Sequence record: PZ445450.1
From: a phage
Strand: one strand, 5' to 3'
DNA length: 64,000 nucleotides
Position 1 is the stretch's first letter. Each line of letters starts with the position of its first letter. Both the position numbers and the translations under genes were made by a program. This document shows positions 829 to 60,310 of this stretch, piece after piece. The notes below the pieces were generated by a model. That model searched no databases. It was not told where the DNA came from and saw only the letters and a list, made by a program, of their open reading frames with translations.

Positions 829-2896
829 ATTTATGGCATCTGCATACAACCGTTTCGGTGAGCCAAACCCGAAAGCAACTAAGTATAAAAGTGGGGGAAG
901 TGTGAAACGAGACTATCGTGATGAAAAAGAGGTTGAAACTGTAGAGACTGTTTTAGAAAATACTAAAATCGTCCCTGTCCCACAACAAAATATCGGTCTG
1001 ATGGCTGCACAATATTTTGGTGTGCGATCAGCATTGTCCCAAGAAGACGGTGTGACAGTTACTGCAACATATTTCCCATATTACGACCGCTACGGAAATC
1101 TGTCCGGTTTCAAAAAGCGTGACTGGACGATTCCTAAAGAGCAAAGAGGCCATTTCTCCGTTGTTGGCATAGTAAAGGCTAACTCTCAGATGTTTGGTCA
1201 AAAGCTGTGTGCATCTTCCAACAACCGTAAGCAGATTAACGTTTGTGAGGGAGAAGGTGATGTTATTGCAGCATGGCAGGCTGCATATCAGATACAAGTA
1301 AAAGGGATTCTCACCAACGCTAAAGCCCCAGCAAAGGTGAAGCAGTGGGCTAAAGAGGTCCAGGACGGGATCGACGCAGTTATCAACGGTGGTGATCTGG
1401 CAGGAAAACCCTGCCTGCCTTTTGTTGGAATTAACTGTGGATGTGCAAACGCAGTAGATACTTTTGCAAACAATGAGAAGTTTATCCGTAGCTATGGAAC
1501 AGTTGTGCTGGCAATGGATAACGATGCAGCTAACGAGGTAGAGAAGCAAAAACACGTCATTAAAGGTGTTGAGGCTACGCACAATATCGCAGCATTTTTG
1601 ATGGCTGATAACGTTTACCACGTAGAGTACCCTGGTGAAGTAAACGATCCTGACGGTGTAAAAGATATCCGTGACATGCTGAAGGCTAAAAAGCTGGAAG
1701 ATATTGTAAACATGTTCCGGCATCCTGTTAAGTATGTACCGGATGCTGTATCGGATTTAGAAGACTTCTCTATCGAATCTTTGCGGAAAAAGACTTCCAA
1801 CGGGGTAGATATCAGCGCAGAGTTCCCAAAACTGCAAAAAATGCTAAAAGGCTTGCACAAAGGGACACTCGTAATGCTTACAGGTCCATCAGGAGGCGGT
1901 AAAACAACTGTAGCTAAAAAACTGGAACACTGTATTGCAAGATACCTAATGGACCCGACATGTCCAAAGGCTGATGATTACGAAGAGGATGATCGTCTAT
2001 GCATGATTCATCTTGAGGAGGACCCAGAGGAAGCAATTAACTCCTTGTATGCAAACCAGTTAGGGTTTGATGTTAAAGAGTTTGTTGAAGATCCTAGCCA
2101 GTTTTTAACTGATCAAGAACACGCAGAGATTCACCAATCATGGGCAAAAGCTGGAAAAATCAAAGTGTTCAAACATTTCGGGTCTATTCCGGTGGACGAG
2201 TTGATTACCAAGCTTAAGCAAATGGTTTGCCTGTACCATTGTCGTTATATTGTGCTGGATCACCTGTCCATGGTAATTTCGGGGCTTAATGTTAAGGATG
2301 AGCGAAAAGAGCTGGACATGGCTATGACCCAACTGGCTGCGTTTTGTAAGCAGTTTAACGTGTTTATCTTGGTGATCGCTCACCTCAAACGTACAGAGAT
2401 TGTGCCTCCTAAAGACAAGGATGGTAACCCGTTACCTTTCTGGTATCCTGTGCGAAAAGAGAATTTGCGAGGATCGGCTGGGCTTGAACAGTTGAGTTGG
2501 GTAGTCATAGGTGTCGAGGCCGAAGAAATGGTGGATCGTTCTCGTGGGCGTGTCCGTTTAGTAGGTCTTAAAAACCGTCCAGCAAAAACATTGGGTATTG
2601 CAGACACTTTGGTTATGGACCCACATACAGGTAAGTTTCATGATGCCAGTAATTGGTACTGGGACAAAGAAATGCAAATGTTTACAGATGGAGAAGGTGG
2701 GGAGGTTGTTTGGAGACCTCAGGCTATGTTTGAGGATCAGGAGCATGCAGTTGTAGAAACACCTATGGGCAAGGTTGTGGCTGATAAGGTTGTAACTCCT
2801 ACTGTTAAGCCTGTTGACACACAAGAAGACCTTCCGTATGATGATCCGTCCTCTGACCCTGTTCCTGGTTTTGAAGACGATGAAACACCTTTTTAA
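818..2896 (+). CDS. Primase-helicase (toprim plus DnaB/T7 gp4-like helicase)
   Basis: Toprim-like CEGEGDVIA and MDNDAANE; Walker A GPSGGGKTT; acidic C-terminus ending EDDETPF; RBS AGGAG upstream. Confidence 0.8.
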   Translation: MGSKFMASAYNRFGEPNPKATKYKSGGSVKRDYRDEKEVETVETVLENTKIVPVPQQNIGLMAAQYFGVRSALSQEDGVTVTATYFPYYDRYGNLSGFKKRDWTIPKEQRGHFSVVGIVKANSQMFGQKLCASSNNRKQINVCEGEGDVIAAWQAAYQIQVKGILTNAKAPAKVKQWAKEVQDGIDAVINGGDLAGKPCLPFVGINCGCANAVDTFANNEKFIRSYGTVVLAMDNDAANEVEKQKHVIKGVEATHNIAAFLMADNVYHVEYPGEVNDPDGVKDIRDMLKAKKLEDIVNMFRHPVKYVPDAVSDLEDFSIESLRKKTSNGVDISAEFPKLQKMLKGLHKGTLVMLTGPSGGGKTTVAKKLEHCIARYLMDPTCPKADDYEEDDRLCMIHLEEDPEEAINSLYANQLGFDVKEFVEDPSQFLTDQEHAEIHQSWAKAGKIKVFKHFGSIPVDELITKLKQMVCLYHCRYIVLDHLSMVISGLNVKDERKELDMAMTQLAAFCKQFNVFILVIAHLKRTEIVPPKDKDGNPLPFWYPVRKENLRGSAGLEQLSWVVIGVEAEEMVDRSRGRVRLVGLKNRPAKTLGIADTLVMDPHTGKFHDASNWYWDKEMQMFTDGEGGEVVWRPQAMFEDQEHAVVETPMGKVVADKVVTPTVKPVDTQEDLPYDDPSSDPVPGFEDDETPF

Positions 2897-2954
2897 TGTT
2901 TAACCAAGAGTGGGAGGGGTAGTACAACCGCCTCCCCTTTAAGGAGAACACTTT

Positions 2955-5732
2955 ATGAGTATGTATAGCTTCGATTTTGAGGCCTCTGGGCTTTTGGAAG
3001 ATCCAGACCTTTATTATCACTGCGGCCTGTTTAAAGCGTTGAATAAGAACCGTTTTATGCTGTTCCTTCCTCTGAATGACCGCACACACTACTCCGAGGA
3101 GGATATAGAAAAGGCTAAGAACTTCATTCTGGCAAAGAAAACTCTTTATAAAGATTTTGAAGTTCGCATAGCAGATTTTTCGGAGTTGGAAGGTTGGCTT
3201 ACAGGCAATTCTGACTGGTCACCAACAGCTTTGAACTGCCATAACTGCTACAGTTATGACTTTATGCTAATGGAAAGATTATCCGGTATTCATTTTGATA
3301 TGTTCCGTGATCCTAAATGCATGGGGACTATCAACGACCACCAGGTTAACCTGTTTGATACGTTGGCTATGAGCCGAATCTTGTGGCCTGATCGCCCTTT
3401 ACCAAAAGGTTGTCCGGACGCTGTATTCAACCCGGTTACTAAGAAAATGCAACCTGTTGGTCCTCACGGCCTTATGGCATGGGGCTACGCCCTTGGTAAC
3501 CAGAAAGTTCAAATTGATGACTGGCGCGATCTTCCGCTGTGGAAATATGTGGATCGTGTGTTCGAGGACGTTATCATCCAGGAGTTGCTCTGGAAAGAGT
3601 TGGTAGCGGAATCAAAAGGTGTATTCTACGGCAAATCTGACATGCAGAACTTTATGTATGACCCTGCCAAAGAGAAGCCTAAAGGATTCAAGAAGATTAC
3701 CTGGAAGAATGCATTACGCCGAGGCATGCTGCAGCATTTCCTGATGGAGTTGCAGGCTCGACAGGGTGTGTATTTCGACATAGATGGGGCTATTGCTTTA
3801 CGTGACCGCTGCGATGCGTGGATGAAAGAGATCGCTGATCGTGTTGAACCACAACTTCCTTTAAAAGAGTTATCAATGTCTCAGCGGCCTAAGTTCCCTG
3901 AAAAGCCGTTTAACCAGGATGGGACAATCTCCAATAATGGTTGGAAATGGTTAAAAGACAAGCTTGGCTACCCTGTGGACATGAGTGCTTTAGAATTCAA
4001 AGCTCCTCCTAAGCGAGCATTTACCTCCACAGGAGATGTCAGTAAGATGGGGATAAAATGGTGTGAAGAGATGGGCTGTAAAGACCCTGATAAGATGGCG
4101 GATTTCTTGAGGGGCTATATCAAGGGCACCTCCACACCACAACCTTTACCTAAAGAGCTAATGGATCAGGCAATAAGCGATCTACAGCAGAAGCGAATGC
4201 CTGACTGCAAGATACCTATGAAAATCAGCAATCAGGACGATATTAAGCGATACCTGATCAGTGCTGGTTGGCTTCCGACAATGTGGAGAACTAAGGATGT
4301 AACTAAAGACAGCAAGAAGAAAGCTCTACCTGATGCAGATGTTGATGCACGAGTGTATGCATATATGGACGAGCTTTTAGAGTCAGAGTATTGTGACCTA
4401 ATTATCAACTTCTGGAACAAAACTGATGCTAAGTTCCAGACAACCGTGCACAAGTTCCGAAGCTTTCCTAACTCCGAAAGGATTAAAAAGGAAGTATTCG
4501 GGAAAATACGTAGAAAAGCTAGGGCACTTATTACTTCTCCGCAACTGAAAGATACGTTTGGACACCTATGCCCGAATCTTGAAAAATTGAACGGAGAGAT
4601 GGCTAAAGATATCGTCTTGTGGTTATCATTGCGAAACCGCAGATCGGTCCTTGATCCAATCAAGGAGGATAAGGTTGATACTGGTCTTCTTAATCACCCA
4701 CGTTTGAAGATTGACCATAAGCTTCCTGCTAAAAGTTCTGGATTAACAAACACTTCCCGACAGAAACACAGTATTTGTGCAAACATGCCTAAACCATCTC
4801 CTAAAGTGGTTATGGGTAAAGAGATGCGTAGTCTGTGGGGTGTTCCTCCAGGATACTTTGAGATCGGTATTGACGGGTCCAACTTAGAGCAGCTTATCGG
4901 GGCTTGGGGTGCCTTTGAGTTCGACAACGGCTTGTACTATGATGTTGTAAGTAACGGAGACGCACACCAAAACAATGCTGAGGCATATACAAAAGTAGCA
5001 GGCAAAGAGGTGTCTCGTAACGACGGTAAACCTATCACGTATGGGGTTATGTACGGGGCACAAAAAGATAAAGTTGCAGATATGCTGGATATCTCCCCAG
5101 AGTTGGGGCAAAGGGTGATCGATGCACTTTGGGATGCCAACCCCGGTCTTAAGGGGCGCAAAGAGGATCTGGAGAAATTCTGGGAAGCAACAGGTAAGAA
5201 GTTTATCTACTCTTTTGATGGTCATGCTATCTGGACCCGATCTAAACACTCTTTACTTAATGCATACCAACAAAATGGTGGTGCATCGCTGTGTGACTTA
5301 GTTGGGATACTCATGCACCACCAAATGGTGAAGCGTGGGTGGTACGATGAAGGTGTCCGTCGTATTATTTATTACCATGATGAGTACCAACTTCAGGTCC
5401 CTGACACACCTAAGTATAAGACTGTGTACACCTTCGACACAATTGAAGAATTGGAAGCATTTAAGGCAGAGCAGGAGGCCAAACTTCATGTGTTCGACGG
5501 TCATAAGTACAAAAAGGCACGCAAGGATGAAAACGGAAACGAAGTGGTTGACAGAGACGGAAACACGGTGTACGATCCTATCCTGAACGATGACGGAAAG
5601 CTTGAACTTATCTGGAGCCCTGTGGGTGAAATGGTGGTGCATTGCTTCTGGCAAGCTTCTAAAATGATGGGCGTTCCATTCCAGATCACAGGTGAATACT
5701 TGTGCGGTCGTAACTGGGGTGATTGTCACTAA
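2955..5732 (+). CDS. DNA polymerase, family A, with 3'-5' exonuclease domain
   Basis: Exo I FDFEASG; motif A IDGSNLEQL; motif B RNDGKPITYGVMYG; motif C YYHDEY; RBS AAGGAGA. Confidence 0.9.
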   Translation: MSMYSFDFEASGLLEDPDLYYHCGLFKALNKNRFMLFLPLNDRTHYSEEDIEKAKNFILAKKTLYKDFEVRIADFSELEGWLTGNSDWSPTALNCHNCYSYDFMLMERLSGIHFDMFRDPKCMGTINDHQVNLFDTLAMSRILWPDRPLPKGCPDAVFNPVTKKMQPVGPHGLMAWGYALGNQKVQIDDWRDLPLWKYVDRVFEDVIIQELLWKELVAESKGVFYGKSDMQNFMYDPAKEKPKGFKKITWKNALRRGMLQHFLMELQARQGVYFDIDGAIALRDRCDAWMKEIADRVEPQLPLKELSMSQRPKFPEKPFNQDGTISNNGWKWLKDKLGYPVDMSALEFKAPPKRAFTSTGDVSKMGIKWCEEMGCKDPDKMADFLRGYIKGTSTPQPLPKELMDQAISDLQQKRMPDCKIPMKISNQDDIKRYLISAGWLPTMWRTKDVTKDSKKKALPDADVDARVYAYMDELLESEYCDLIINFWNKTDAKFQTTVHKFRSFPNSERIKKEVFGKIRRKARALITSPQLKDTFGHLCPNLEKLNGEMAKDIVLWLSLRNRRSVLDPIKEDKVDTGLLNHPRLKIDHKLPAKSSGLTNTSRQKHSICANMPKPSPKVVMGKEMRSLWGVPPGYFEIGIDGSNLEQLIGAWGAFEFDNGLYYDVVSNGDAHQNNAEAYTKVAGKEVSRNDGKPITYGVMYGAQKDKVADMLDISPELGQRVIDALWDANPGLKGRKEDLEKFWEATGKKFIYSFDGHAIWTRSKHSLLNAYQQNGGASLCDLVGILMHHQMVKRGWYDEGVRRIIYYHDEYQLQVPDTPKYKTVYTFDTIEELEAFKAEQEAKLHVFDGHKYKKARKDENGNEVVDRDGNTVYDPILNDDGKLELIWSPVGEMVVHCFWQASKMMGVPFQITGEYLCGRNWGDCH

Positions 5733-27837: not shown

Positions 27838-28053
27838 TCAGTCCAGTGGTTCATCACCTACTTCACTGAAATCAATGTTCATGGTCTCCTCCCAACCATC
27901 AATCTCAGCACCAGAGTAGAGATCTTTAGGACTTACTCCCAAAGCCTCAGCAACAGAGTCTATATTTAACACCTCTGGCAGGTATGATTCATCGAATTCA
28001 AGGTAAATCAGGCCACGAGTGTTGTCAGCTCCACCAAATATTTCTATCTTCAT
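27838..28053 (-). CDS. Hypothetical acidic protein
   Basis: GAGGAG RBS before the internal ATG (MKIEIFGG...); start refined from the ORF track. Confidence 0.45.
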   Translation of the reverse strand: MKIEIFGGADNTRGLIYLEFDESYLPEVLNIDSVAEALGVSPKDLYSGAEIDGWEETMNIDFSEVGDEPLD

Positions 28054-28173
28054 GAAATCTCCTCTGGAAATGAGAATGTGAACAGGGTTTATATGTTCCA
28101 ATGCACTGGAATTATGCACGTTTGCCTCTTCAGGCCATGCTTTAGCATGAGGAACCTGTGTGGGCTCGGTGCT

Positions 28174-28386
28174 TCATAGTCTACCACCTCTGAACTCTTC
28201 GTGCTCAGGCATAATAGAGAACCAGATATCTACGATGTCTTCCCACGTTAGGTCATCAGCCTCAGGATCTACCTGGAGCGAAGATGGAGAATCTTCAGAA
28301 TTGAAGTTTTCCTCTTGCACTGGCTCAGTCAAGGGACATATAGTCACTCCTTTGGATGTCTCTTCAGACGCATGTGTGGTAGTCAT
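28174..28386 (-). CDS. Hypothetical acidic protein
   Basis: ATGA-coupled to the upstream small peptide. Confidence 0.4.
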   Translation of the reverse strand: MTTTHASEETSKGVTICPLTEPVQEENFNSEDSPSSLQVDPEADDLTWEDIVDIWFSIMPEHEEFRGGRL

Positions 28387-28484
28387 GTTCCACCCGTGAG
28401 TATTCCGGCAACAGCCGCTATGGAAGTAATGATCATCAGGATCACCACTAAAACTTCAGACAATGTTCTCATTGTGTATTCCAT
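28383..28484 (-). CDS. Small TM peptide (33 aa)
   Basis: GGAG RBS; hydrophobic; promoter immediately upstream. Confidence 0.35.
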   Translation of the reverse strand: MEYTMRTLSEVLVVILMIITSIAAVAGILTGGT

Positions 28485-28504
28485 ATTCTCCAAACTGTGT
28501 GTGG

Positions 28505-28533
28505 ATACTATCACGGGAGCGGTAATGTGTCAA
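28505..28533 (-). promoter_or_regulatory. Sigma70-like promoter
   Basis: TTGACA, 17 nt spacer, TAGTAT on the - strand. Confidence 0.45.
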
Positions 28534-28691
28534 CAGCAACGCCGCGAGGGTTTGGTTAAAATCCGAGCGTATGGTGATTTGGGTCAAAACGGACGTGCGT
28601 TCTCGCTACGCTCGAAAGAGAGGTTTGTTTATAGACCGTCCTTAAACGCTCTGTAACGAGATTATCTGTCCAAGGTATGCAATCGTGCACC

Positions 28692-28722
28692 AGATAAAGA
28701 AAAGGACGCCATAGAGCGTCCT
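28692..28722 (-). terminator. Rho-independent terminator
   Basis: ggacgctctatggcgtcc followed by ttttctttat on the - strand. Confidence 0.6.
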
Positions 28723-28752
28723 AGGTGTCTTAAATTTGATATTTTGCTATAC

Positions 28753-29046
28753 CTATGAGGGCTTATCAAGGTTGGAGTAGCTGAAAGGTGTCAAAAGGTG
28801 ATTGTCAAAATCTCTCAAACTGTCCAGATCTTTTTCCTCGTCCTGACACCATCTGTGCCTACATTTATTGTTGTAGTGCATAGAATGCATAGCGTTCTGC
28901 AACTTAACAGGCACAAGTGATTCAGGAGTGGATAGTATTGTTGGGTATGCCAGAACCACCTCAAATAGTGGGAACACATCGAAACTAAAGTCTACCTCTG
29001 CAGAGGTTGATGGCATGTAGGAGTATTTAGCCGCCTTTGTAGACAT
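28753..29046 (-). CDS. Hypothetical protein
   Basis: GAGGTGG RBS. Confidence 0.45.
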   Translation of the reverse strand: MSTKAAKYSYMPSTSAEVDFSFDVFPLFEVVLAYPTILSTPESLVPVKLQNAMHSMHYNNKCRHRWCQDEEKDLDSLRDFDNHLLTPFSYSNLDKPS

Positions 29047-29054
29047 AATCCACC

Positions 29055-29381
29055 TCACACAGGTTTGATAATACCTTTACCGAATAATTCTTCGTATCTA
29101 ATCTTATCCGGATCCCACTCCTGGATAATTTCGAAGACAATATCCAACCCAGGGATAATCACTTCTCCAGTGTCAAGTTTGGCAAGAACAAAACCAGAAG
29201 GCTGAATGGTTTCCCAGTTGCGACGATTGGAATAGAAGACCTCGAAAATATCACCGACCTTGATCTGTTGATCAAGATGTTCAAGATTCTCTTTCATATA
29301 GATGCAGCGGATTTTTCGTGCAGGCCATAGACCGCCTGCATCACGTTCATTTAGTTCTTTTACAGTAATCGGTATACCCAT
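29055..29381 (-). CDS. Hypothetical protein
   Basis: 108 aa ORF. Confidence 0.5.
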   Translation of the reverse strand: MGIPITVKELNERDAGGLWPARKIRCIYMKENLEHLDQQIKVGDIFEVFYSNRRNWETIQPSGFVLAKLDTGEVIIPGLDIVFEIIQEWDPDKIRYEELFGKGIIKPV

Positions 29382-29399
29382 CTCAAATCTCCTTCATGG

Positions 29400-29427
29400 A
29401 TAGTAAAAGAGGGGCTTGGGCCCCTCT
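29400..29427 (-). terminator. Rho-independent terminator
   Basis: agaggggcccaagcccctct followed by a T-tract on the - strand. Confidence 0.6.
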
Positions 29428-29433
29428 TTGTCA

Positions 29434-29739
29434 TTATTCTACAGAGCGTTTGAACAGAATGTCTGCCTCAGACATGTGCTCAACCTCTTCTTCGATTTTA
29501 GCTCGACGTTTTTCAGCCTCATAGCGAATATCGAACTCGGTAGCCACCAGAGATTTGATGAATTTAGGAGAATACAGATGATCCTGCTTCTCAACAAGAA
29601 TGATATCCTTGATGGCATCTTTCAGATCTTTAATCTGAAGCTGGAGTTCCACCAGTTCTTCGATTGTTTTGCGAAGGCGATCACGTTCTGCAGTGTCAGA
29701 AGGAAGAGAGGTGAACAGTTCAACTTTAGATTTAGCCAT
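29434..29739 (-). CDS. Coiled-coil protein
   Basis: GGAGAC RBS; charged heptad-like sequence. Confidence 0.5.
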   Translation of the reverse strand: MAKSKVELFTSLPSDTAERDRLRKTIEELVELQLQIKDLKDAIKDIILVEKQDHLYSPKFIKSLVATEFDIRYEAEKRRAKIEEEVEHMSEADILFKRSVE

Positions 29740-29767
29740 AGTAGGAGTCTCCTTATGTTGTTTTAAA

Positions 29768-30019
29768 TTAACGTTCTACAAAAATACCATTCAGTTCAAT
29801 AACCAGGAATTTCTGGTCTTCACTATCGTCTCGTGCCAGTACCTCACAGACGTATCGGTCATCCCCATCATCATCGCAGTCAAATACAAGACTGAGGACT
29901 TTATCATGGTAAACCTTCGCCACTACCGCCTCGTAAGTATTGCCGATTGTGAATCCAAGATAATCTCCGATGCATTTGACAACAACATGGTCTCCAGCAT
30001 TTAAGTCAATCTTTGTCAT
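29768..30019 (-). CDS. Hypothetical protein
   Basis: AAGGAG RBS before the internal ATG. Confidence 0.45.
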   Translation of the reverse strand: MTKIDLNAGDHVVVKCIGDYLGFTIGNTYEAVVAKVYHDKVLSLVFDCDDDGDDRYVCEVLARDDSEDQKFLVIELNGIFVER

Positions 30020-30174
30020 TACTGCGCTCCTTGGGTAATAATACTGTATGTAAAACTTTAACCAGAGATGTGAATAACGCCCCAAAACACACCGATAGCA
30101 CTAAAACAGACAAGGCCATCATTAAAGCTTCAGTAAAATCAGTCACTCCTCACCTCTTGTTAGTCACTATACTG

Positions 30175-30438
30175 TCATTTATCCTTGCCGTCAAGAACTT
30201 TTTTAAATCTTTCAGGGATATCTCCTGTTCTTAGATAGTTCATGACCTCGCAAGGTTCCCACTTGAATTTCTTACAGAGCAGGACGGCTGAGATTGTTTC
30301 ATTGCGAAAAGAAAGGATATTAATATCCCACTCTGAGAACCCCAACTTCCGAAGGGTAGCTATAGAAATCCTCACCGCAACCCAGCAGCAAAAACATGCA
30401 ACAAACGCCACTGCTACAACCCACATCAGGATGTTCAT
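30175..30438 (-). CDS. Putative membrane protein
   Basis: N-terminal TM helix with Cys cluster. Confidence 0.45.
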   Translation of the reverse strand: MNILMWVVAVAFVACFCCWVAVRISIATLRKLGFSEWDINILSFRNETISAVLLCKKFKWEPCEVMNYLRTGDIPERFKKVLDGKDK

Positions 30439-30447
30439 ACAAGCACC

Positions 30448-30531
30448 TTACTGAAATACAAGACACAGTGTTAAGGTTACTGACCAGCAAATAATTAACA
30501 GAACTGTTGCAACCTTGGCAAGATTTATCAT
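30448..30531 (-). CDS. Small TM peptide (27 aa)
   Basis: ATGA coupling to the upstream gene; hydrophobic. Confidence 0.3.
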   Translation of the reverse strand: MINLAKVATVLLIICWSVTLTLCLVFQ

Positions 30532-30815
30532 AGTGCCTCTAAGATTTCATATCCATCTGGTCGGAATACAAGCCACTCCGTGGCTCCGTTTGGTCGATAC
30601 GCTTTATACAGAACAACCTGATCTCGGCACATGCACATAGCTACATAGTTTTCATCCACACCTGCAGCCTGCATTGCAGCTTCTTCTCCGGCAACTGCTT
30701 TGCTTACAACCTCCTTGGTAGGCAGGTGTGCGATCAGTTCGTCACCATCATTAACTCCAAAATGGCTGAGCTCCCCATTGGTATCTTTAATCTTAATCTT
30801 AACCAGATCTTTCAT
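30528..30815 (-). CDS. Hypothetical protein
   Basis: 95 aa ORF; start overlaps the stop of the upstream gene. Confidence 0.5.
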   Translation of the reverse strand: MKDLVKIKIKDTNGELSHFGVNDGDELIAHLPTKEVVSKAVAGEEAAMQAAGVDENYVAMCMCRDQVVLYKAYRPNGATEWLVFRPDGYEILEAL

Positions 30816-31144
30816 TAGTCTTCCTCCAGGTTCAAAGGCCCTAAGATTTCATATGCCAGATTAGAAGTTACCAGAGGGTCTTCTGCATCTTTAGTATTAT
30901 ACCACCCGTGAATAACCAGAGTCCCACTCTGTTTCATATCCAACTGGAACTGTTCTGCAGTTTCCTCCTCCATCTCTAAGATTTCCATAAGGTATTTGAT
31001 GTTAGGAAGGTATGCAGCTGTTACAGTCCCCTCTACCAGACCTTCAGGCCAACCTACATCTGGATGACAAGTAGGAACCAGGTTGGTCAGCTTAATGGTG
31101 TACGCTTTTTCTGCACGAGCCTTCAGTAACGGGTCAATCTTCAT
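30815..31144 (-). CDS. Hypothetical protein
   Basis: Start overlaps the stop of the upstream gene. Confidence 0.5.
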   Translation of the reverse strand: MKIDPLLKARAEKAYTIKLTNLVPTCHPDVGWPEGLVEGTVTAAYLPNIKYLMEILEMEEETAEQFQLDMKQSGTLVIHGWYNTKDAEDPLVTSNLAYEILGPLNLEED

Positions 31145-31494
31145 TATTCGTCCTCCTCTTCGGTGCCTGCTTCCAGTAATAAGTTAAGAATATCTTCTGC
31201 ACAAGGCTCATAGAACTCTTGGCCTTCATTATCGATGATTTTGTAGTCATCTCCACGAATAATCAGGGGATCACTCTCAAAATTATCGAGACCTTTAACA
31301 ACGACAACACGATCGATTGCCATCATTGTAAGAACTTTATCGACATCTTCCTCTGCTACACCATACTGCAGCAGAATGTCCTTGGTAGGAGGAACAGCAT
31401 CCACCACAACACCGTTACCAAAACCTTCCGGCAAGTTAGCTAAAATATCTTCCGGAACCACATTAGTATCAAAACCGGTAATTTCTACTTTCAT
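31144..31494 (-). CDS. Hypothetical acidic protein
   Basis: MKVEITG... N-terminus; Glu/Asp-rich C-terminal tail. Confidence 0.5.
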   Translation of the reverse strand: MKVEITGFDTNVVPEDILANLPEGFGNGVVVDAVPPTKDILLQYGVAEEDVDKVLTMMAIDRVVVVKGLDNFESDPLIIRGDDYKIIDNEGQEFYEPCAEDILNLLLEAGTEEEDE

Positions 31495-31755
31495 TTACAG
31501 CACCTCTTCGTCAACTACTTCATAAAAATGGCCTGGGATTGCAATAGCGTTCTCACCTTCACCTACAAACACAGTTCCATCAAGAATCAACATCATAAGA
31601 ATTTCTGTAATATCCTCTTCCGGAACGTTGCCAAAACCTTTAATCAGCTCGTAGGTTGGGAGATTTACCTCTAAGATGTCACCATCTTTAGAACGGAAAT
31701 CAACACCGTCCTGAATCTCTGCCGTTTCAAGGTTTTTCAATTTAATCTTCATCAA
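31495..31755 (-). CDS. Small acidic protein, paralog family member
   Basis: MKIKLKNLE... N-terminus and ...FYEVVDEEVL C-terminus. Confidence 0.55.
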   Translation of the reverse strand: MMKIKLKNLETAEIQDGVDFRSKDGDILEVNLPTYELIKGFGNVPEEDITEILMMLILDGTVFVGEGENAIAIPGHFYEVVDEEVL

Positions 31756-31831
31756 TCAGTCTCCTGTCTTGTTAAGATGAAGGTATTATTTCACACAGGG
31801 TTGGCGTTGTCAACACCTGTGTGCAAGAAAA

Positions 31832-32227
31832 TTACTGAAACAGTGTGAATAAATTACCTTCCGGTGGGAACTTATCTGCCAAAAACGGTGTTAGCACAGT
31901 AGCCTTCTGAAGATCTGGGGTCCACTCGTTGTTCAGAACATCCCAATAGTACGCAATGTTGCTGTGTGGGTGCCGCATTACGAACTTTTTCCCTTCGTAG
32001 TCAGTTGAAACCTCTACAGAAGAAATAACAACAGAATCTTCAAGAGTTTCTTCATAGAAAGATCCGCCCTCGAATTTCCAACGAGATGCAAGAGCTCCTG
32101 CCTTAAACGCTGCAGATAACGGACTGTCTGCAAGAACATACATTTCTTGCACTCTGTCACTGCGATCTTTGCTTCTTACGTTGTATACAGTGTCTGAGCT
32201 ATACTCAACACGGTATAGACTTACCAT
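31832..32227 (-). CDS. Hypothetical protein
   Basis: 131 aa ORF. Confidence 0.5.
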   Translation of the reverse strand: MVSLYRVEYSSDTVYNVRSKDRSDRVQEMYVLADSPLSAAFKAGALASRWKFEGGSFYEETLEDSVVISSVEVSTDYEGKKFVMRHPHSNIAYYWDVLNNEWTPDLQKATVLTPFLADKFPPEGNLFTLFQ

Positions 32228-32586
32228 TACCGAACCTCCTCAATAACTTCCACATCTGAACCTACTATAAATGCAAAAGGACAGGTTTCAGGAAAGACAT
32301 CCGGATCGCCGCCAAGCTTGCTAACAATTTCTCCACCACTAATAAACACAAGCTCACCGATATTCATCAGGTTGCTGAAATAGTACCCATAATGATTAAA
32401 GAATGCAGCAGGGTCAGGTAGACTAGTGGCCTCAAGCTCTACATCGGTTGAGGTTACTTTCTTATCATAACCTCTCGCCTTTTGAGATGCAAGATCTGCA
32501 GAATCCTCAGGCGACCGGAGATGCACAGGAATTGTTTCACCAATAAAACGTACTTTCATATTATCACCCAACAACCATAGCTTCAA
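32227..32586 (-). CDS. Hypothetical protein
   Basis: 119 aa ORF; start overlaps the stop of the upstream gene. Confidence 0.5.
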   Translation of the reverse strand: MKLWLLGDNMKVRFIGETIPVHLRSPEDSADLASQKARGYDKKVTSTDVELEATSLPDPAAFFNHYGYYFSNLMNIGELVFISGGEIVSKLGGDPDVFPETCPFAFIVGSDVEVIEEVR

Positions 32587-32827
32587 AAGGAGTCATGAAC
32601 GAATAAACGGCATCATCATCTGCTTCAGGGAATGCTCCCAATGACTTCAGGTCTAAGCCCTTGACAAATACAAGGTTTTGATCAAAAGCTTCTTGCGGAT
32701 CAATCCGATACATATCCCGTAGGATATCGCTTACCTCCTCATCAAGAGGTGAGTATGCTGTGCACGTTTTTCCGATCAAGCTTTGAGAATCAGGGTATCC
32801 ACCTGAAGTTTTAAAATAAACAATCAT
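32564..32827 (-). CDS. Small acidic protein, paralog family member
   Basis: MIVYFKTSGGYPDSQSLIGK resembles MKVKFLTDLGYPSLVDCVGK of 34509-34742. Confidence 0.5.
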   Translation of the reverse strand: MIVYFKTSGGYPDSQSLIGKTCTAYSPLDEEVSDILRDMYRIDPQEAFDQNLVFVKGLDLKSLGAFPEADDDAVYSFMTPFEAMVVG

Positions 32828-32920
32828 ATAGTATCACCTCTGGCAAGAATGGGGATTCCTTTCCCACAAGTAATTACAAACTTTTCTTCTTATTGAGGCA
32901 GTATGCTAATCCAAGCAGGA

Positions 32921-33190
32921 TTATTCCTCTACAACCTCATACACATCAGGAGTTACAATCAACTCTTCTCCGTTACCCGGTGCAACAAACACCACCAAAC
33001 CTTCAGGTGTGTGCTTTTTAGCCATCTCGATAACATCTTCTCGCAGAGCTGGCTCCATCAGATCAAAACCTTCACCCAGGGCATCACGAACCACCTTCAT
33101 GTAGTCTACTGGTTGTGCTTCAACGATCATGCCTTCAACCAGTCCACAGTTTTTGTCTGCCAGCTCAGTTTTGAATAATTTAATTTTCAT
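32921..33190 (-). CDS. Small acidic protein, paralog family member
   Basis: MKIKLFKTEL... and ...VYEVVEE. Confidence 0.55.
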   Translation of the reverse strand: MKIKLFKTELADKNCGLVEGMIVEAQPVDYMKVVRDALGEGFDLMEPALREDVIEMAKKHTPEGLVVFVAPGNGEELIVTPDVYEVVEE

Positions 33191-33216
33191 TTAGAGGTCT
33201 CCTCAATTATTTGATA

Positions 33217-33318
33217 TTAATAGCCGTAACCTAACACATTAACTACAACTGCGATTGCAAACATAATTTCAAAGCATGCAATCTCTACATTTGGGACTAG
33301 TTTCTTAATCACGCCCAT
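33217..33318 (-). CDS. Small TM peptide (33 aa)
   Basis: GAGGTG RBS; hydrophobic. Confidence 0.35.
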   Translation of the reverse strand: MGVIKKLVPNVEIACFEIMFAIAVVVNVLGYGY

Positions 33319-33327
33319 TGTAGCACC

Positions 33328-33645
33328 TCATTCTCCAAAGTCAATCTTTACTTTGCCTTTCCCCTTACCTTTCTTTCCACCACATTTAGCCAACTGACGT
33401 GCTGCAACATCTACCATACGGTCAGTTGCCTCGTAAGCATCACTGCCTTTAGCTTTGGCAATAACTTCTTTTCCGGAAGTGTCAAAAATGAACGCCATAA
33501 CTTCCTGGTGATCATTTTCAACTTTTACACTCACACGTGCATAGTTGGCAGAGGGGTGCAAACGCTCCAGCTTAGACATTTTGTGGGAAATGAAAGACAC
33601 CATACCTTCAGTGATTTCTACGTTGCCAGTGATTTCAATTTGCAT
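33328..33645 (-). CDS. hpf: Ribosome hibernation promoting factor (HPF/RaiA/YfiA family) homolog
   Basis: MQIEITGNVEITEG...KLE...VSVKVE...ARQLAK aligns along its length with E. coli HPF (MQLNITGNNVEITEALREF...); Lys/Gly-rich tail. Confidence 0.8.
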   Translation of the reverse strand: MQIEITGNVEITEGMVSFISHKMSKLERLHPSANYARVSVKVENDHQEVMAFIFDTSGKEVIAKAKGSDAYEATDRMVDVAARQLAKCGGKKGKGKGKVKIDFGE

Positions 33646-33654
33646 AACGTGTTC

Positions 33655-33684
33655 CTTTTAAAGAAGAGGGAACCAAACCCTCTT
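33655..33684 (-). terminator. Rho-independent terminator
   Basis: agagggtttggttccctct plus T-tract on the - strand. Confidence 0.55.
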
Positions 33685-33727
33685 TGAAAACAATGATACT
33701 AAATCTGAAGCGTTGTGTCAACAGTTT

Positions 33728-34018
33728 TTACAGCTTGTTGTCGATAGTTTTTAAAATATCTACAGCAAGATCTGCCATTTTTCGAACATACTCTGCAAAC
33801 TCAACAGGATCCTTGATCAAAGAATTCACAGGGTCGTACCCTAGAGCGTTCAAAATGGCTGCAGCATCTACAACCTTCTCATCATTTGCGAAGATCTCTC
33901 CGTCAAACTTGTAGGTCCATTTTGAGTCAACCTTAGCAGAGCAGGGTTTGTCCATGCTTGTTACACCATCGTCTTTAAACTCTCCTGCGTTATCCATATT
34001 CAGAACTAAATCCATCAT
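33728..34018 (-). CDS. Hypothetical protein
   Basis: 96 aa ORF. Confidence 0.5.
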   Translation of the reverse strand: MMDLVLNMDNAGEFKDDGVTSMDKPCSAKVDSKWTYKFDGEIFANDEKVVDAAAILNALGYDPVNSLIKDPVEFAEYVRKMADLAVDILKTIDNKL

Positions 34019-34035
34019 AGTGGCACCTCACTGTT

Positions 34036-34512
34036 TCAGTTTAGCTTTTCTTCAACAACCCCATAGCTTGGGACAGAGTCAAGAGCTTTCTGGTTTAAAA
34101 GTGGTGTAGCAGGATCTGCAATGACATCCCAAGTCTCATACAGACCGCACTCATGATACCCCCAACGCTGCTCAATTGTCAAGCTGAGTGGCAAATCTTT
34201 ACCGTCACAAACAACCTTCCATCTACAAATGCTGGTATCTGGGCGTATCTGTGCACGGTATATCTGTACAAAATCCAATTTGAATTTGAGGTACTCGTCA
34301 TACAATTTAAGCACAAAGCTCTCGATTTGTGGAGACACTTTTGCAGCAAACTGTGCGTATTTGTACTTGCACTGGATGATCTTTCTGCGTTTTGCAGTTA
34401 AATTTTTTGCCGCCAGTTGTTCTTCAGTGTATCTCCACCTACGATCAACAAACGCAACAGGGTCTTTGTCCCCATAGAGGTCTTCCCAGTTAATCAGAAG
34501 CATACCTGTCAC
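34036..34512 (-). CDS. Hypothetical protein
   Basis: 158 aa ORF. Confidence 0.5.
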   Translation of the reverse strand: MTGMLLINWEDLYGDKDPVAFVDRRWRYTEEQLAAKNLTAKRRKIIQCKYKYAQFAAKVSPQIESFVLKLYDEYLKFKLDFVQIYRAQIRPDTSICRWKVVCDGKDLPLSLTIEQRWGYHECGLYETWDVIADPATPLLNQKALDSVPSYGVVEEKLN

Positions 34513-34742
34513 TCCTCCACAACTTCAAGGCCTTTACCGCCTCGCTCTGGCAGATTACTTAAAGATAGGTAATACATATAATCAGGAGAGATCCTGCCAG
34601 ACTCTGCACCTGCAGCTAGTAAATCCTTCCCTTTAACCAGGACAACATTCTCGTTTGCAGATAGCCGTTTTGCTTCCACAATTTTACCAACACAGTCAAC
34701 CAAGGAAGGGTACCCTAAATCTGTAAGAAATTTAACTTTCAT
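34509..34742 (-). CDS. Small acidic protein, paralog family member
   Basis: GGAGG RBS; MKVKFLTDLGYP... and ...LEVVEE. Confidence 0.55.
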   Translation of the reverse strand: MKVKFLTDLGYPSLVDCVGKIVEAKRLSANENVVLVKGKDLLAAGAESGRISPDYMYYLSLSNLPERGGKGLEVVEE

Positions 34743-34781
34743 GCTACCTCCTGCTTCTACCGTCCCTGGTAAGATAAATTA

Positions 34782-35183
34782 TTACTGAACAGAGCGCGGG
34801 GCTGGGAAGGATAACTCTTCTAAAGAGAAGATTTCATTTCCTACCACCCAAGTTGCTGGATCATCTGGGTCAACAGGCTGGATAATCATTACCTCATCCG
34901 CCTCGCACACACGTTTCCCACCTATAGTAGCGGAGTCAGCCACTAGCATACGAGGCTCTTCAGAAATGCACAGGTAACCTCCTCGGCCCACTGTTCCTTC
35001 CACAGGATCCTGCCCTTTGACCACAATGAATACCTTCTCTCCTGTGGCGATATTACTTTGCACACTAACAGTTTGACCAACTTTAGATGTACCGATCTTA
35101 GTGGCTTCAAACATTAAATCCCGAATTACTGTTGCATAGTTGCCGGACACTTTCTTACCTTCTTTAGTAATCTCAATCTTCAT
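34782..35183 (-). CDS. Hypothetical protein
   Basis: AAGGAG RBS; MKIEITKEG... Confidence 0.55.
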   Translation of the reverse strand: MKIEITKEGKKVSGNYATVIRDLMFEATKIGTSKVGQTVSVQSNIATGEKVFIVVKGQDPVEGTVGRGGYLCISEEPRMLVADSATIGGKRVCEADEVMIIQPVDPDDPATWVVGNEIFSLEELSFPAPRSVQ

Positions 35184-59548: not shown

Positions 59549-60310
59549 TTAAAGTTCCATAAAGTTTTCTACAGTTTCAATAAATGCTTTATCAGAGAAA
59601 GCGTCAACAGCACCGTTAAACCATACAGGGATCCCGCGATCCTCATATTGATAAAGGTCGCTACGTGAAATGCCACTTCCATCTGCACTCTGCGAATCAT
59701 ACTTGTTTACAATCAGCAGTTTTGTGCCTTTACAAGTAGCAGGAAACAATTCCCAGTTAAAATTAATAACTGTGTTAGAACAACCTACCAGGATCACCAT
59801 ATCATTGCTTGTGAGAGATGTCAACAGGTCATACATGTCTGTATACTTAGGAGCAACCTCACCGAAGAACACTACATTGGGCTTAACCCAGGTATACTTG
59901 CCTGTATCTACCTCCGTGTATCCGATATTTTTAATTACATCATTACCTTCAGCATCTTCGTAGGTGATTTCAGGCAAATACCCGTGGACATGTAAAATAT
60001 CTTCATGTTTTACACCAGCACGCTCCAGCAAATCATCTACATTGGTAGTAAGGTTGATCACACGACCAGACCAGCGGGAATACCACTCAGCGATCCGAAG
60101 ATGTGCAAGGTTAGGATCAACACTGCCCAGAGCTACACGACGTGCATTGTAAAAGTCATGCACCTTATAGTAGTTCTTGGCAAAGGTGTGGATGTTGCAC
60201 ACCTCATCGATGCTGAAATTCTCCCACATTGCAGTGCTACCAGATCGGAAAGTGGGAATACCAGATTCAGCGCTCAAACCAGCACCGGAGATAATAATCA
60301 GTCGTCGCAT
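59549..60310 (-). CDS. Sir2 (sirtuin) family NAD-dependent enzyme
   Basis: GAGLSAESGIPTFR, TTNVDDLLERAG, HVHG, PNVVFFGE and VGCSNTV motifs; no CxxC...CxxC zinc module. Confidence 0.75.
   Translation of the reverse strand: MRRLIIISGAGLSAESGIPTFRSGSTAMWENFSIDEVCNIHTFAKNYYKVHDFYNARRVALGSVDPNLAHLRIAEWYSRWSGRVINLTTNVDDLLERAGVKHEDILHVHGYLPEITYEDAEGNDVIKNIGYTEVDTGKYTWVKPNVVFFGEVAPKYTDMYDLLTSLTSNDMVILVGCSNTVINFNWELFPATCKGTKLLIVNKYDSQSADGSGISRSDLYQYEDRGIPVWFNGAVDAFSDKAFIETVENFMEL

What the first reader, a model, noticed from the sequence alone, without database searches (positions are those of the whole stretch)
33328..33645. Phage-encoded ribosome hibernation factor (HPF/RaiA) homolog inside a cluster of small acidic proteins
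The 105-aa product aligns along its whole length with bacterial HPF/YfiA and adds a Lys/Gly-rich tail. A phage copy suggests direct manipulation of host ribosome activity or 100S dimer state. It sits among about 25 small - strand ORFs (27.8-35.8 kb), several of which start with a similar MK(I/V)(E/K)(I/L) beta-strand-like N-terminus.
Basis: partly seen in the sequence, partly recalled or inferred. Interest (0 to 1): 0.6.

Follow-up and report, generated by a model that had tools for sequence, protein, structure and literature searches.

The report
Known phage copy of ribosome-hibernation factor
The gene is a genuine but diverged copy of the bacterial ribosome-silencing protein HPF carried by rV5-like E. 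coli phages; it is already annotated and published, and what it does during infection is still unknown.

Summary
Window 33328-33645 (- strand) encodes a 105-aa protein that passes the curated thresholds of Pfam PF02482 and TIGR00741 (HPF/YfiA family). It is 42% identical to E. coli HPF over residues 1-89. Its model has the HPF fold, 1.0-1.1 A rmsd to solved HPFs, followed by a disordered Lys/Gly tail.

The window is a Vequintavirus (rV5-like) genome. The gene is present in 118 phage records, many of which already call it a ribosome hibernation factor. Mizuno et al. 2019 reported the rV5 protein, expressed it, and found it neither on salt-washed ribosomes nor changing 100S levels. The finding is therefore already known.

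New here:
- Two more lineages (64% and 57% identity) carry the gene at the same position. Synonymous sites are saturated while the core is under purifying selection.
- Helix-1 lysines and Arg83/Lys87 are kept, but Lys80, Lys89, Lys93 and His95 are lost and replaced by a fast-evolving basic tail.
- The published negative binding assay did not retain the host's own HPF either, so it is uninformative.
- The acidic neighbours form two paralogous families unrelated to HPF.

Most likely it binds the 30S decoding channel weakly. Its role in infection is untested.

The parts
33328..33645 (-). hpf-like CDS, 105 aa plus stop
   Evidence: ORF listing and sequence. PF02482 48.2 bits and TIGR00741 46.7 bits, both above their cut-offs. 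99-100% identical to the Vequintavirus proteins annotated as ribosome hibernation factor, RaiA or sigma-54 modulation factor.
33382..33645 (-). Core domain, residues 1-88: beta-alpha-beta-beta-beta-alpha HPF fold
   Evidence: The AF2 model has pLDDT 89-96 for residues 1-80, with elements E2-7, H13-29, E33-43, E46-55, E60-67, H70-91. Foldseek against the PDB gives V. cholerae HPF 4hei at rmsd 1.0 A and E. coli HPF 6h4n_x at rmsd 1.1 A, TM 0.90. pN is 0.12-0.24 against pS of about 0.8 between lineages.
33331..33381 (-). Lys/Gly-rich C-terminal tail, residues 89-105 (GGKKGKGKGKVKIDFGE)
   Evidence: pLDDT is below 50 for residues 91-105 and net charge is +4. The sequence is not conserved between lineages (pN 0.46-0.63) but is always basic. 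It is shortened by frameshifts in the purine run in APECc02 (101 aa) and Murica (99 aa).
33693..33721 (-). Sigma-70-type promoter-like site, TTGACA-17-TATCAT, upstream of hpf
   Evidence: Consensus scan, 11 of 12 matches. PhagePromoter predicts a promoter at the same place in phage Gotham. The -35 box is conserved in lineage L002 but absent in L005. No experimental evidence.
33664..33684 (-). 7-bp hairpin in the 5' leader (AAGAGGG-TTTGGTT-CCCTCTT)
   Evidence: Sequence. The fold is -9.9 kcal/mol but z = -0.47, so it is not exceptional. It lies in a 26-nt insertion found only in the rV5 lineage. Function unknown.
33653..33657 (-). Shine-Dalgarno AAGGA, 8 nt upstream of the ATG
   Evidence: Sequence.
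33317..33344 (-). Promoter-like site (TTGACT-16-TACAAT with TG) overlapping the end of hpf, facing the next genes
   Evidence: Consensus scan, 10 of 12. PhagePromoter predicts one at the equivalent place in Gotham.
27838..35183 (-). Surrounding block of small, mostly acidic genes of unknown function (context only, not part of HPF)
   Evidence: pI 4.0-5.4 for most products. PHROG families are all 'unknown function' and there are no Pfam hits. The same gene order flanks hpf in two diverged lineages.
30528..31752 (-). Four tandem paralogues (95, 109, 116 and 85 aa) of an acidic protein family, to which the 89-aa gene at 32921-33190 is weakly linked
   Evidence: hhalign probabilities are 95.5% (116 vs 85 aa), 94.5% (109 vs 116 aa) and 56% (95 vs 116 aa); the gene at 32921-33190 reaches only 14-15%. 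The model of the 85-aa member has pLDDT 82, a topology unlike HPF, and no PDB match (best E 0.7).

Best explanation
This is a true, vertically inherited member of the HPF/YfiA (RaiA, PF02482) family, carried by rV5-like phages (genus Vequintavirus). It derives from a gammaproteobacterial short HPF but has long been resident in the phage.

Inferred mechanism:
1. Host RNA polymerase transcribes it from a sigma-70-type promoter, together with the neighbouring small early or host-takeover genes.
2. The folded core docks, as HPF does, into the A/P-site channel of the 30S subunit of vacant host ribosomes. It would use the retained helix-1 lysines (K22, K25, R28) and helix-2 Arg83 and Lys87, the residues that contact 16S rRNA around m4C1402 and C1496-G1497.
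3. The far end of helix 2 has lost the basic track (K80, K89, K93) and His95. Arg33 has also gone; Arg33 and Lys93 touch E-site tRNA in E. coli HPF, and His95 stacks on G693 of h23. A flexible, fast-evolving, strongly basic tail replaces this end of the protein. Binding is therefore expected to be salt-labile, and it need not promote 100S dimers.
4. The likeliest net effect is to occupy idle ribosomes reversibly during infection, protecting them and/or competing with host HPF, YfiA and RMF.

Shown here: homology, fold, conservation and selection. Inferred only: expression timing, ribosome binding and physiological role.
For: Family membership: PF02482 and TIGR00741 scores are above their curated cut-offs. 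E. coli HPF is the best solved relative, at 42% identity.

Fold: the AF2 model matches V. cholerae and E. coli HPF at 1.0-1.1 A rmsd.

Inheritance: the gene is in 118 of the roughly 120 Vequintavirus records that match this region. Two uncultured lineages carry it at 64% and 57% identity in the same gene order.

Selection: pS is about 0.8 (saturated) against pN of 0.12-0.24 in the core. GC is 42.8% and GC3 38.7%, the same as the phage background. The gene is old and maintained.

Contact residues, taken from 10.1101/382572 and 10.1101/2025.10.07.680626: K23, K26, R/Q29, E44, D75, D79, R83 and K87 (E. coli numbering) are kept in all three phage lineages.

Charge: net charge rises from -1 in E. 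coli HPF to +2, +5 and +7 in the phage forms, which argues for retained nucleic-acid binding.

Promoter: a promoter-like site scores 11 of 12.
Against: When the rV5 protein was expressed from pBAD in E. coli, mass spectrometry did not find it on 70S or 100S ribosomes, and 100S did not change (PMC6375957). Those ribosomes were pelleted through 0.5 M NH4Cl. Host HPF and RMF were also absent from every washed-ribosome table, although present in the crude extract.

Several positions that are basic in most bacterial HPFs are lost in all three phage lineages: K80 to V/T/I, K89 to G/S/N, plus K93, H95 and R33. E51 is M/S/S and T53 is F/R/R.

The score against the enterobacterial HPF equivalog model is 55 bits against a cut-off of 125.

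No expression data exist for this gene. The AF2 alignment was dominated by bacterial HPFs, so fold agreement was partly to be expected.
Confidence: 0.6

Rival explanations
1. YfiA-like antagonist of hibernation. The protein binds the same 30S site as HPF and YfiA, but its extended basic tail (10 aa longer than HPF) reaches towards the mRNA-exit and RMF region, as the YfiA tail does. It would then evict host YfiA and HPF and block RMF-dependent 100S formation. Being weakly bound, it would leave ribosomes quickly available for phage mRNAs. This refines the best explanation and gives it a specific physiological direction.
For: The tail lengthens the protein to 105 aa, between HPF (95 aa) and YfiA (113 aa). 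The YfiA tail heads towards the RMF site. Mizuno et al. proposed competition with cellular homologs.

In their tables, host YfiA is on washed ribosomes from cells expressing the two other viral proteins they tested, bS21 and bL12 (Supplementary Data 2 and 3). It is absent from the 71 proteins of ribosomes from cells expressing rV5 HPF (Data 4), although present in that culture's crude extract (Data 5).
Against: The YfiA difference is one sample each with 1-2 peptides, so it could be sampling noise. No change in the small 100S peak was reported, although cells were harvested at the end of exponential growth. The tail sequence is not conserved between lineages and is truncated in two isolates, which does not fit a precise RMF-site interaction.
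Confidence: 0.25
2. Neofunctionalised fold. The protein keeps the HPF scaffold but no longer targets the ribosome. It would bind another RNA or protein, for example phage or host transcripts, or a host defence or stress factor.
For: Widely conserved contact positions are lost (K80, K89, K93, H95, E51, T53, R33), and residues fixed only in the phage clade appear (K64, K66, H30-P31, F54). The protein is not recovered on ribosomes. The clade is isolated: only one representative below E=1e-10 among 1.84 billion, and bacterial HPFs are at most 44% identical.
Against: The residues that contact the most conserved rRNA elements (K23, K26, R29, R83, K87, D75) are invariant across three lineages whose synonymous sites are saturated. 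V at position 80 also occurs in 3 of 23 diverse bacterial family members. The negative assay lacked a working positive control.
Confidence: 0.2
3. Functionless passenger recently picked up from a host.
For: None beyond its bacterial ancestry.
Against: It keeps the same position in three lineages with saturated synonymous divergence and a pN/pS of about 0.15-0.3 in the core. Its composition is identical to the phage. It is at most 44% identical to any bacterial HPF. It is present in essentially all Vequintavirus genomes.
Confidence: 0.02

Closest known systems
E. coli short HPF (YhbH; PDB 2RQL, 4V8H, 6H4N)
   Same: Same family and fold, with a collinear alignment over residues 1-89 at 42% identity. 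Shared contact residues are K23, K26, E44, D75, D79, R83 and K87.
   Different: K80, K89, K93, H95 and R33 are lost, and N8 is deleted in this isolate. It has a 17-residue disordered Lys/Gly tail instead of KDKLKQH. It scores 55 bits against the 125-bit cut-off of the HPF equivalog model. It is a phage early-block gene rather than a gene in a bacterial chromosomal setting. No effect on 100S was seen when it was expressed.
E. coli YfiA / RaiA (protein Y; PDB 1N3G, 4V8I)
   Same: Same fold. It has a C-terminal extension beyond the HPF length, and it may stabilise 70S rather than 100S.
   Different: Much weaker sequence match: NF007654 18.7 bits against a cut-off of 158, and phmmer E of about 0.2. 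The tail is basic and unrelated in sequence. From my own recollection of the E. coli sequence, not checked here, the YfiA tail ends in acidic residues.
rV5 gene product ABI79209 and its Vequintavirus orthologues (Mizuno et al. 2019, PMC6375957; Mathieu et al. 2020, PMC6969025)
   Same: The same gene: 99% identity to the rV5 protein cluster and 100% to phages Gotham and phiWec189.
   Different: Nothing of substance. This isolate has T56 instead of N56 and lacks the second Asn of GNNVEIT found in MaxBurger and Murica.
S30AE proteins of jumbo phages (Cronobacter phage GAP32 K4F6Q6, Escherichia phage PBECO4 L7TII8)
   Same: Phage-encoded members of the same fold family.
   Different: Only 17-21% identity in the structural alignment and a different PHROG (phrog_8990 rather than phrog_12469). 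They are independent acquisitions, as already concluded in PMC6375957.

Membership tests
HPF/YfiA (RaiA) family, Pfam PF02482 / TIGR00741 | Profile score above the curated threshold over the whole domain | tested here: met
   PF02482 scores 48.2 bits against 23.7, covering profile positions 1-83 of 88. TIGR00741 scores 46.7 bits against 40.9.
HPF/YfiA (RaiA) family, Pfam PF02482 / TIGR00741 | Beta-alpha-beta-beta-beta-alpha fold | tested here: met
   The AF2 model has pLDDT 84 overall and more than 89 in the core, with the expected order of elements. The top 37 PDB matches are all HPF, YfiA, pY or RafH, with best rmsd 1.0 A. Caveat: the input alignment was mostly bacterial HPFs.
HPF/YfiA (RaiA) family, Pfam PF02482 / TIGR00741 | Conserved basic residues that contact 16S rRNA (K23, K26 on helix 1; K80, R83, K87, K91 on helix 2) | tested here: inconclusive
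   K23, K26, R83 and K87 are kept in all three phage lineages. K80 is lost in all three (V/T/I). K91 is kept only in the rV5 lineage. K89, K93 and H95 are lost.
HPF/YfiA (RaiA) family, Pfam PF02482 / TIGR00741 | Binds the 30S A/P-site channel and inhibits translation | not testable with these tools
   The published expression test did not find the protein on ribosomes washed in 0.5 M NH4Cl, but host HPF was also absent from those preparations.
Enterobacterial short HPF, equivalog NF007780 | Score at or above the equivalog cut-off (125 bits) | tested here: not met
   55 bits. It is HPF-like in sequence but not an equivalog of the host protein.
Enterobacterial short HPF, equivalog NF007780 | Promotes the 90S-to-100S step together with RMF | not testable with these tools
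RaiA / YfiA, equivalog NF007654 | Score at or above the equivalog cut-off (158 bits) | tested here: not met
   18.7 bits. The RefSeq name 'ribosome-associated translation inhibitor RaiA' given to several phage records is a family-level label, not an orthology call.
Long HPF (two-domain, self-dimerising) | C-terminal dimerisation domain after a linker | tested here: not met
   The protein ends 17 residues after the core, and the tail is disordered with no second domain.

The most novel reading that the evidence does not exclude
The phage protein is a deliberately weak, fast-exchanging occupant of the decoding channel. It would displace the host's own hibernation factors (YfiA, HPF with RMF) and so undo or pre-empt ribosome hibernation, including dormancy imposed by starvation or by defence systems that raise RMF. 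At the same time it would shield idle ribosomes from ribonucleases. In short, a viral anti-hibernation or ribosome-preservation factor built from a hibernation factor.
Probability: 0.2. Interest if true: 0.6.

Novelty: already known. Interest (0 to 1): 0.25.

Why it matters
Phage genes that touch the translation machinery are rare, and an HPF copy kept under selection in a widespread group of therapeutic and gut coliphages implies a real benefit. That benefit may lie in infecting starved or stationary cells, whose ribosomes are hibernating. However, the existence of the gene, its family assignment and a first functional test were all published in 2019. This analysis adds context rather than discovery:
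- the gene is ancient in the lineage;
- its far helix-2 contacts have been exchanged for a basic tail;
- the published negative binding result lacks a working positive control, so the functional question remains open and is cheap to test.

Tried and rejected
1. Neighbours sharing the HPF fold or ancestry. All-against-all blastp and hhalign of three-lineage profiles gave at most 4.2% probability for HPF against any neighbour, limited to the first 7-16 residues. The AF2 model of the 85-aa neighbour has a different topology and no PDB match. Rejected.
2. A structured RNA or riboswitch in the hpf leader. The hairpin has z = -0.47, there is no Rfam hit in 27.0-37.5 kb, and the hairpin is absent from the other lineages. 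Rejected as a conserved element.
3. Recent transfer from the host. Composition is the same as the phage, no bacterial HPF is more than 44% identical, and dS between phage lineages is saturated. Rejected.
4. Newer literature on function. Seven full-text searches were run. Those aimed at a phage or Vequintavirus HPF found only Mizuno 2019 and Mathieu 2020.
5. The word-indexed homolog search with the single protein found only near-identical sequences plus one relative at 64% identity. An alignment query and the exhaustive search were needed to see the rest.
6. The first hhalign batch timed out and was rerun in parallel.

Full report
**What is there.** Window 33328-33645 on the - strand is an ATG-initiated ORF of 105 codons. 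An AAGGA Shine-Dalgarno lies 8 nt upstream. Its product is MQIEITGNVEITEGMVSFISHKMSKLERLHPSANYARVSVKVENDHQEVMAFIFDTSGKEVIAKAKGSDAYEATDRMVDVAARQLAKCGGKKGKGKGKVKIDFGE.

**Family assignment.**
- Pfam PF02482 (Ribosomal_S30AE) scores E=1.9e-12 and 48.2 bits against a gathering score of 23.7, across almost the whole profile.
- NCBIfam TIGR00741 (HPF/YfiA family) scores 46.7 bits against a cut-off of 40.9.
- The two narrow equivalog models are not reached: enterobacterial HPF NF007780 at 55 bits against 125, and RaiA NF007654 at 18.7 bits against 158.
- Against solved structures, E. coli HPF comes first (E about 1e-11, residues 1-89 on 1-89), and YfiA entries are far weaker (E about 0.2).
- Identity to E. 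coli HPF is 42%.

**Fold.** An AlphaFold2 model built on an alignment with 36 enterobacterial HPFs and two phage relatives has mean pLDDT 84, and 89-96 over residues 1-80. Its elements run beta-alpha-beta-beta-beta-alpha, and residues 91-105 are disordered. Foldseek against the PDB returns 37 significant hits, all HPF, YfiA, pY or RafH. The best are V. cholerae HPF 4hei (rmsd 1.0 A) and E. coli HPF in the 100S ribosome, 6h4n_x (rmsd 1.1 A, TM 0.90). One caveat applies: because the alignment was dominated by HPFs, fold agreement was partly to be expected.

**Where the window comes from, and what was already known.** The region is 99.8% identical to Escherichia phage vB_EcoM_Gotham and 95-97% identical to about 120 rV5-like phages of genus Vequintavirus. 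tblastn finds the protein in 118 phage records, all at 95% identity or more. Many of these already annotate it as 'ribosome hibernation factor', 'hpf', 'RaiA' or 'sigma 54 modulation factor'.

Mizuno et al. 2019 (PMC6375957) list the rV5 protein ABI79209 (105 aa) among virus-encoded ribosome-associated proteins. They expressed it in E. coli from pBAD24. Mass spectrometry found it in the crude extract but not in purified 70S or 100S ribosomes, and they saw no effect on 100S. Mathieu et al. 2020 (PMC6969025) note the hpf gene in five further rV5-like isolates. Of seven full-text searches in all, those aimed at a phage or Vequintavirus HPF found nothing newer on its function. As a finding, this is already known.

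**New context: age and selection.** A search with an alignment query, and an exhaustive phmmer search of 1.84 billion cluster representatives, show that the phage clade is isolated. Only one representative scores below 1e-10 (P0004, 64-65% identity). Bacterial HPFs are at most 44% identical.

P0004 and a third form, P0008 (57%), sit on uncultured contigs of up to about 137 kb (P0004; largest read here 126 kb) and about 74 kb (P0008). Neither form is in the phage record collection searched. In both, hpf lies in the same order of small genes as in the window.

Between the three lineages, synonymous differences are saturated (pS 0.79-0.82). Non-synonymous differences in the core (residues 1-88) are 0.12-0.24. 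The tail is nearly unconstrained in sequence (pN 0.46-0.63). GC (42.8%) and GC3 (38.7%) equal those of the phage background. The gene is thus an old, vertically inherited and selectively maintained part of this phage group, not a recent pick-up.

**Ribosome-contact residues.** Contacts were taken from the cryo-EM papers (10.1101/382572 and 10.1101/2025.10.07.680626). Their fate was checked in the three phage lineages and in 23 diverse bacterial family representatives.

| Position (E. coli numbering) | Fate in the phage lineages |
|---|---|
| K23, K26 | Kept in all three |
| Position 29 | R (the commonest bacterial residue there) |
| E44, D75, D79 | Kept in all three |
| R83 (contacts m4C1402), K87 | Kept in all three |
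| K80 (K in 15 of 23 bacterial, V in 3) | V/T/I |
| K89 | G/S/N |
| K91 | Kept only in the rV5 lineage |
| K93, H95 (E-site tRNA; stacking on G693) | Lost; replaced by the tail |
| R33 | S/T |
| E51 | M/S/S |
| T53 | F/R/R |

Helix 2 is broken at C88-G89-G90 and is followed by a flexible basic tail. The tail differs in each lineage: GGKKGKGKGKVKIDFGE, SKSKGIDKRTAKWDY and NLTKSRRASKQEITLY. Overall net charge rises from -1 in E. coli HPF to +2, +5 and +7 in the phage forms. In two isolates, frameshifts in the purine-rich run shorten the tail: APECc02 to 101 aa and Murica to 99 aa. These could be real variants or sequencing errors. MaxBurger and Murica keep the second Asn of GNNVEIT, which this window lacks.

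Taken together, this pattern suggests retained docking in the decoding channel, with a remodelled and probably weaker E-site and mRNA-path end.

**Re-reading the published negative result.** The ribosomes were pelleted through a cushion of 0.5 M NH4Cl.
- In the deposited mass-spectrometry tables, host HPF and RMF appear only in the crude extract (Supplementary Data 5). They appear in none of the three washed-ribosome tables.
- The assay therefore does not retain even the host's own HPF. Absence of the phage protein says little about whether it binds.
- Host YfiA was detected on washed ribosomes from cells expressing the two other viral proteins tested in that study, bS21 and bL12 (1 and 2 peptides). 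It was not among the 71 proteins from cells expressing rV5 HPF, although it was present in that culture's extract.
- This is one sample each with very low counts. It is a lead for competition with YfiA, not evidence of it.

**Expression signals.** A sigma-70-type site (TTGACA-17-TATCAT, 11 of 12 matches) lies at 33721-33693. PhagePromoter predicts a promoter at the same place in Gotham. The -35 box is conserved in lineage L002 but not in L005. A 7-bp hairpin at 33684-33664 sits in a 26-nt insertion specific to the rV5 lineage, and its stability is not exceptional (z = -0.47). No terminator follows the gene, and another promoter-like site overlaps its 3' end. There are no Rfam or tRNA hits nearby. 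Expression timing is inferred only. The rV5 genome paper gives predicted sigma-70-like promoters throughout the genome but no transcript data.

**The neighbourhood.** About 24 small - strand genes between 27.8 and 35.8 kb are almost all acidic (pI 4.0-5.4). HPF is one of only two basic products in the block (pI 8.7; the membrane-like g08 is 8.9). All ten neighbours tested fall in PHROGs of unknown function and have no Pfam match.

The MK[IV][EKR][ILF] start occurs in 7 ORFs of this block and only once elsewhere in the 64 kb. Profile-profile comparison using the three lineages finds two paralogous families:
- the tandem genes at 30528-31752, with probabilities 95.5%, 94.5% and 56%; the gene at 32921-33190 is only weakly linked (14-15%);
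- the pair at 32564-32827 and 34509-34742, with probability 91%.

HPF matches no neighbour beyond its first 7-16 residues (at most 4.2%). A model of the 85-aa family member (pLDDT 82) has a different topology and no significant PDB match: the best is E 0.7, a weak SH3-like resemblance. The shared N-terminal motif is therefore not evidence of a shared fold.

**Verdict.** The feature is real and correctly identified, but already annotated and published. The best-supported mechanism is HPF-like, salt-labile occupation of the 30S decoding channel of vacant ribosomes, with a remodelled C-terminal end (confidence about 0.6). The physiological direction remains open: ribosome preservation, competition with host hibernation factors, or a new target. 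It could be settled by simple low-salt binding and competition assays with host HPF as a control, stationary-phase 100S profiling, and a phage knock-out.

Other phage S30AE proteins, in the jumbo phages GAP32 and PBECO4, are only 17-21% identical and represent separate acquisitions.

Noticed in passing
window 34107-34121, inside the 155-aa ORF at 34036-34503 (-): Relative to phage Gotham, the window lacks about 3.8 kb (Gotham locus L001 positions 1700-5524, about 16 small genes including an HNH homing endonuclease). The two flanks overlap by 15 bp at the junction. The junction lies inside an ORF, so this 155-aa gene is an in-frame chimera of two Gotham genes (F10B_0140 and F10B_0154).
   Followed up: partly
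Supplementary Data 2-5 of PMC6375957 (not in the window): Host HPF and RMF are absent from all salt-washed ribosome tables, so the published 'no incorporation' result for rV5 HPF has no working positive control. Host YfiA is present on ribosomes of the two other samples but missing from the sample expressing rV5 HPF.
   Followed up: partly
window 30528-31752, 32921-33190, 32564-32827, 34509-34742 (-): Two families of small acidic paralogues with MK(I/V)x(I/L/F) starts, many ending in a YE(V/I)(V/L)(E/D)-like C-terminus. All are PHROGs of unknown function. The modelled 85-aa member has no PDB counterpart.
   Followed up: partly
public records MG065647-MG065690 ('Campylobacter phage' C5, C15, A12a and others): Eighteen records labelled Campylobacter phages are about 96.5% identical to this E. 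coli Vequintavirus region and carry the same hpf gene. This looks like mislabelling or contamination of those records.
   Followed up: no
public records OR062528, MT884008, MT884010, KR698074: There are annotation errors on this gene. Three records call it 'ATP-dependent protease La type I'. In APECc02 (KR698074), hpf itself is 'hypothetical protein' and the label 'sigma 54 modulation factor' sits on the neighbouring gene.
   Followed up: no
window-wide, e.g. 28528-28536, 33716-33724, 59819-59827 (-): The extended -35 motif CTGTTGACA (one mismatch allowed) occurs 39 times against 19.3 expected, and none of 100 shuffles reached that number. This is consistent with many host-type promoters across the genome.
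   Followed up: no
protein P0122 (1160 aa, from the representative library): A 1160-aa protein matched residues 35-81 of the phage HPF in nine separate stretches (E=1.3e-08). This may be a repeat protein built from part of the S30AE fold, or a compositional artefact.
   Followed up: no
window 33217-33318 (-): A 33-aa hydrophobic ORF (MGVIKKLVPNVEIACFEIMFAIAVVVNVLGYGY) lies directly downstream of hpf. It is annotated as a gene in MaxBurger and Murica but has no counterpart in the two diverged lineages.
   Followed up: no
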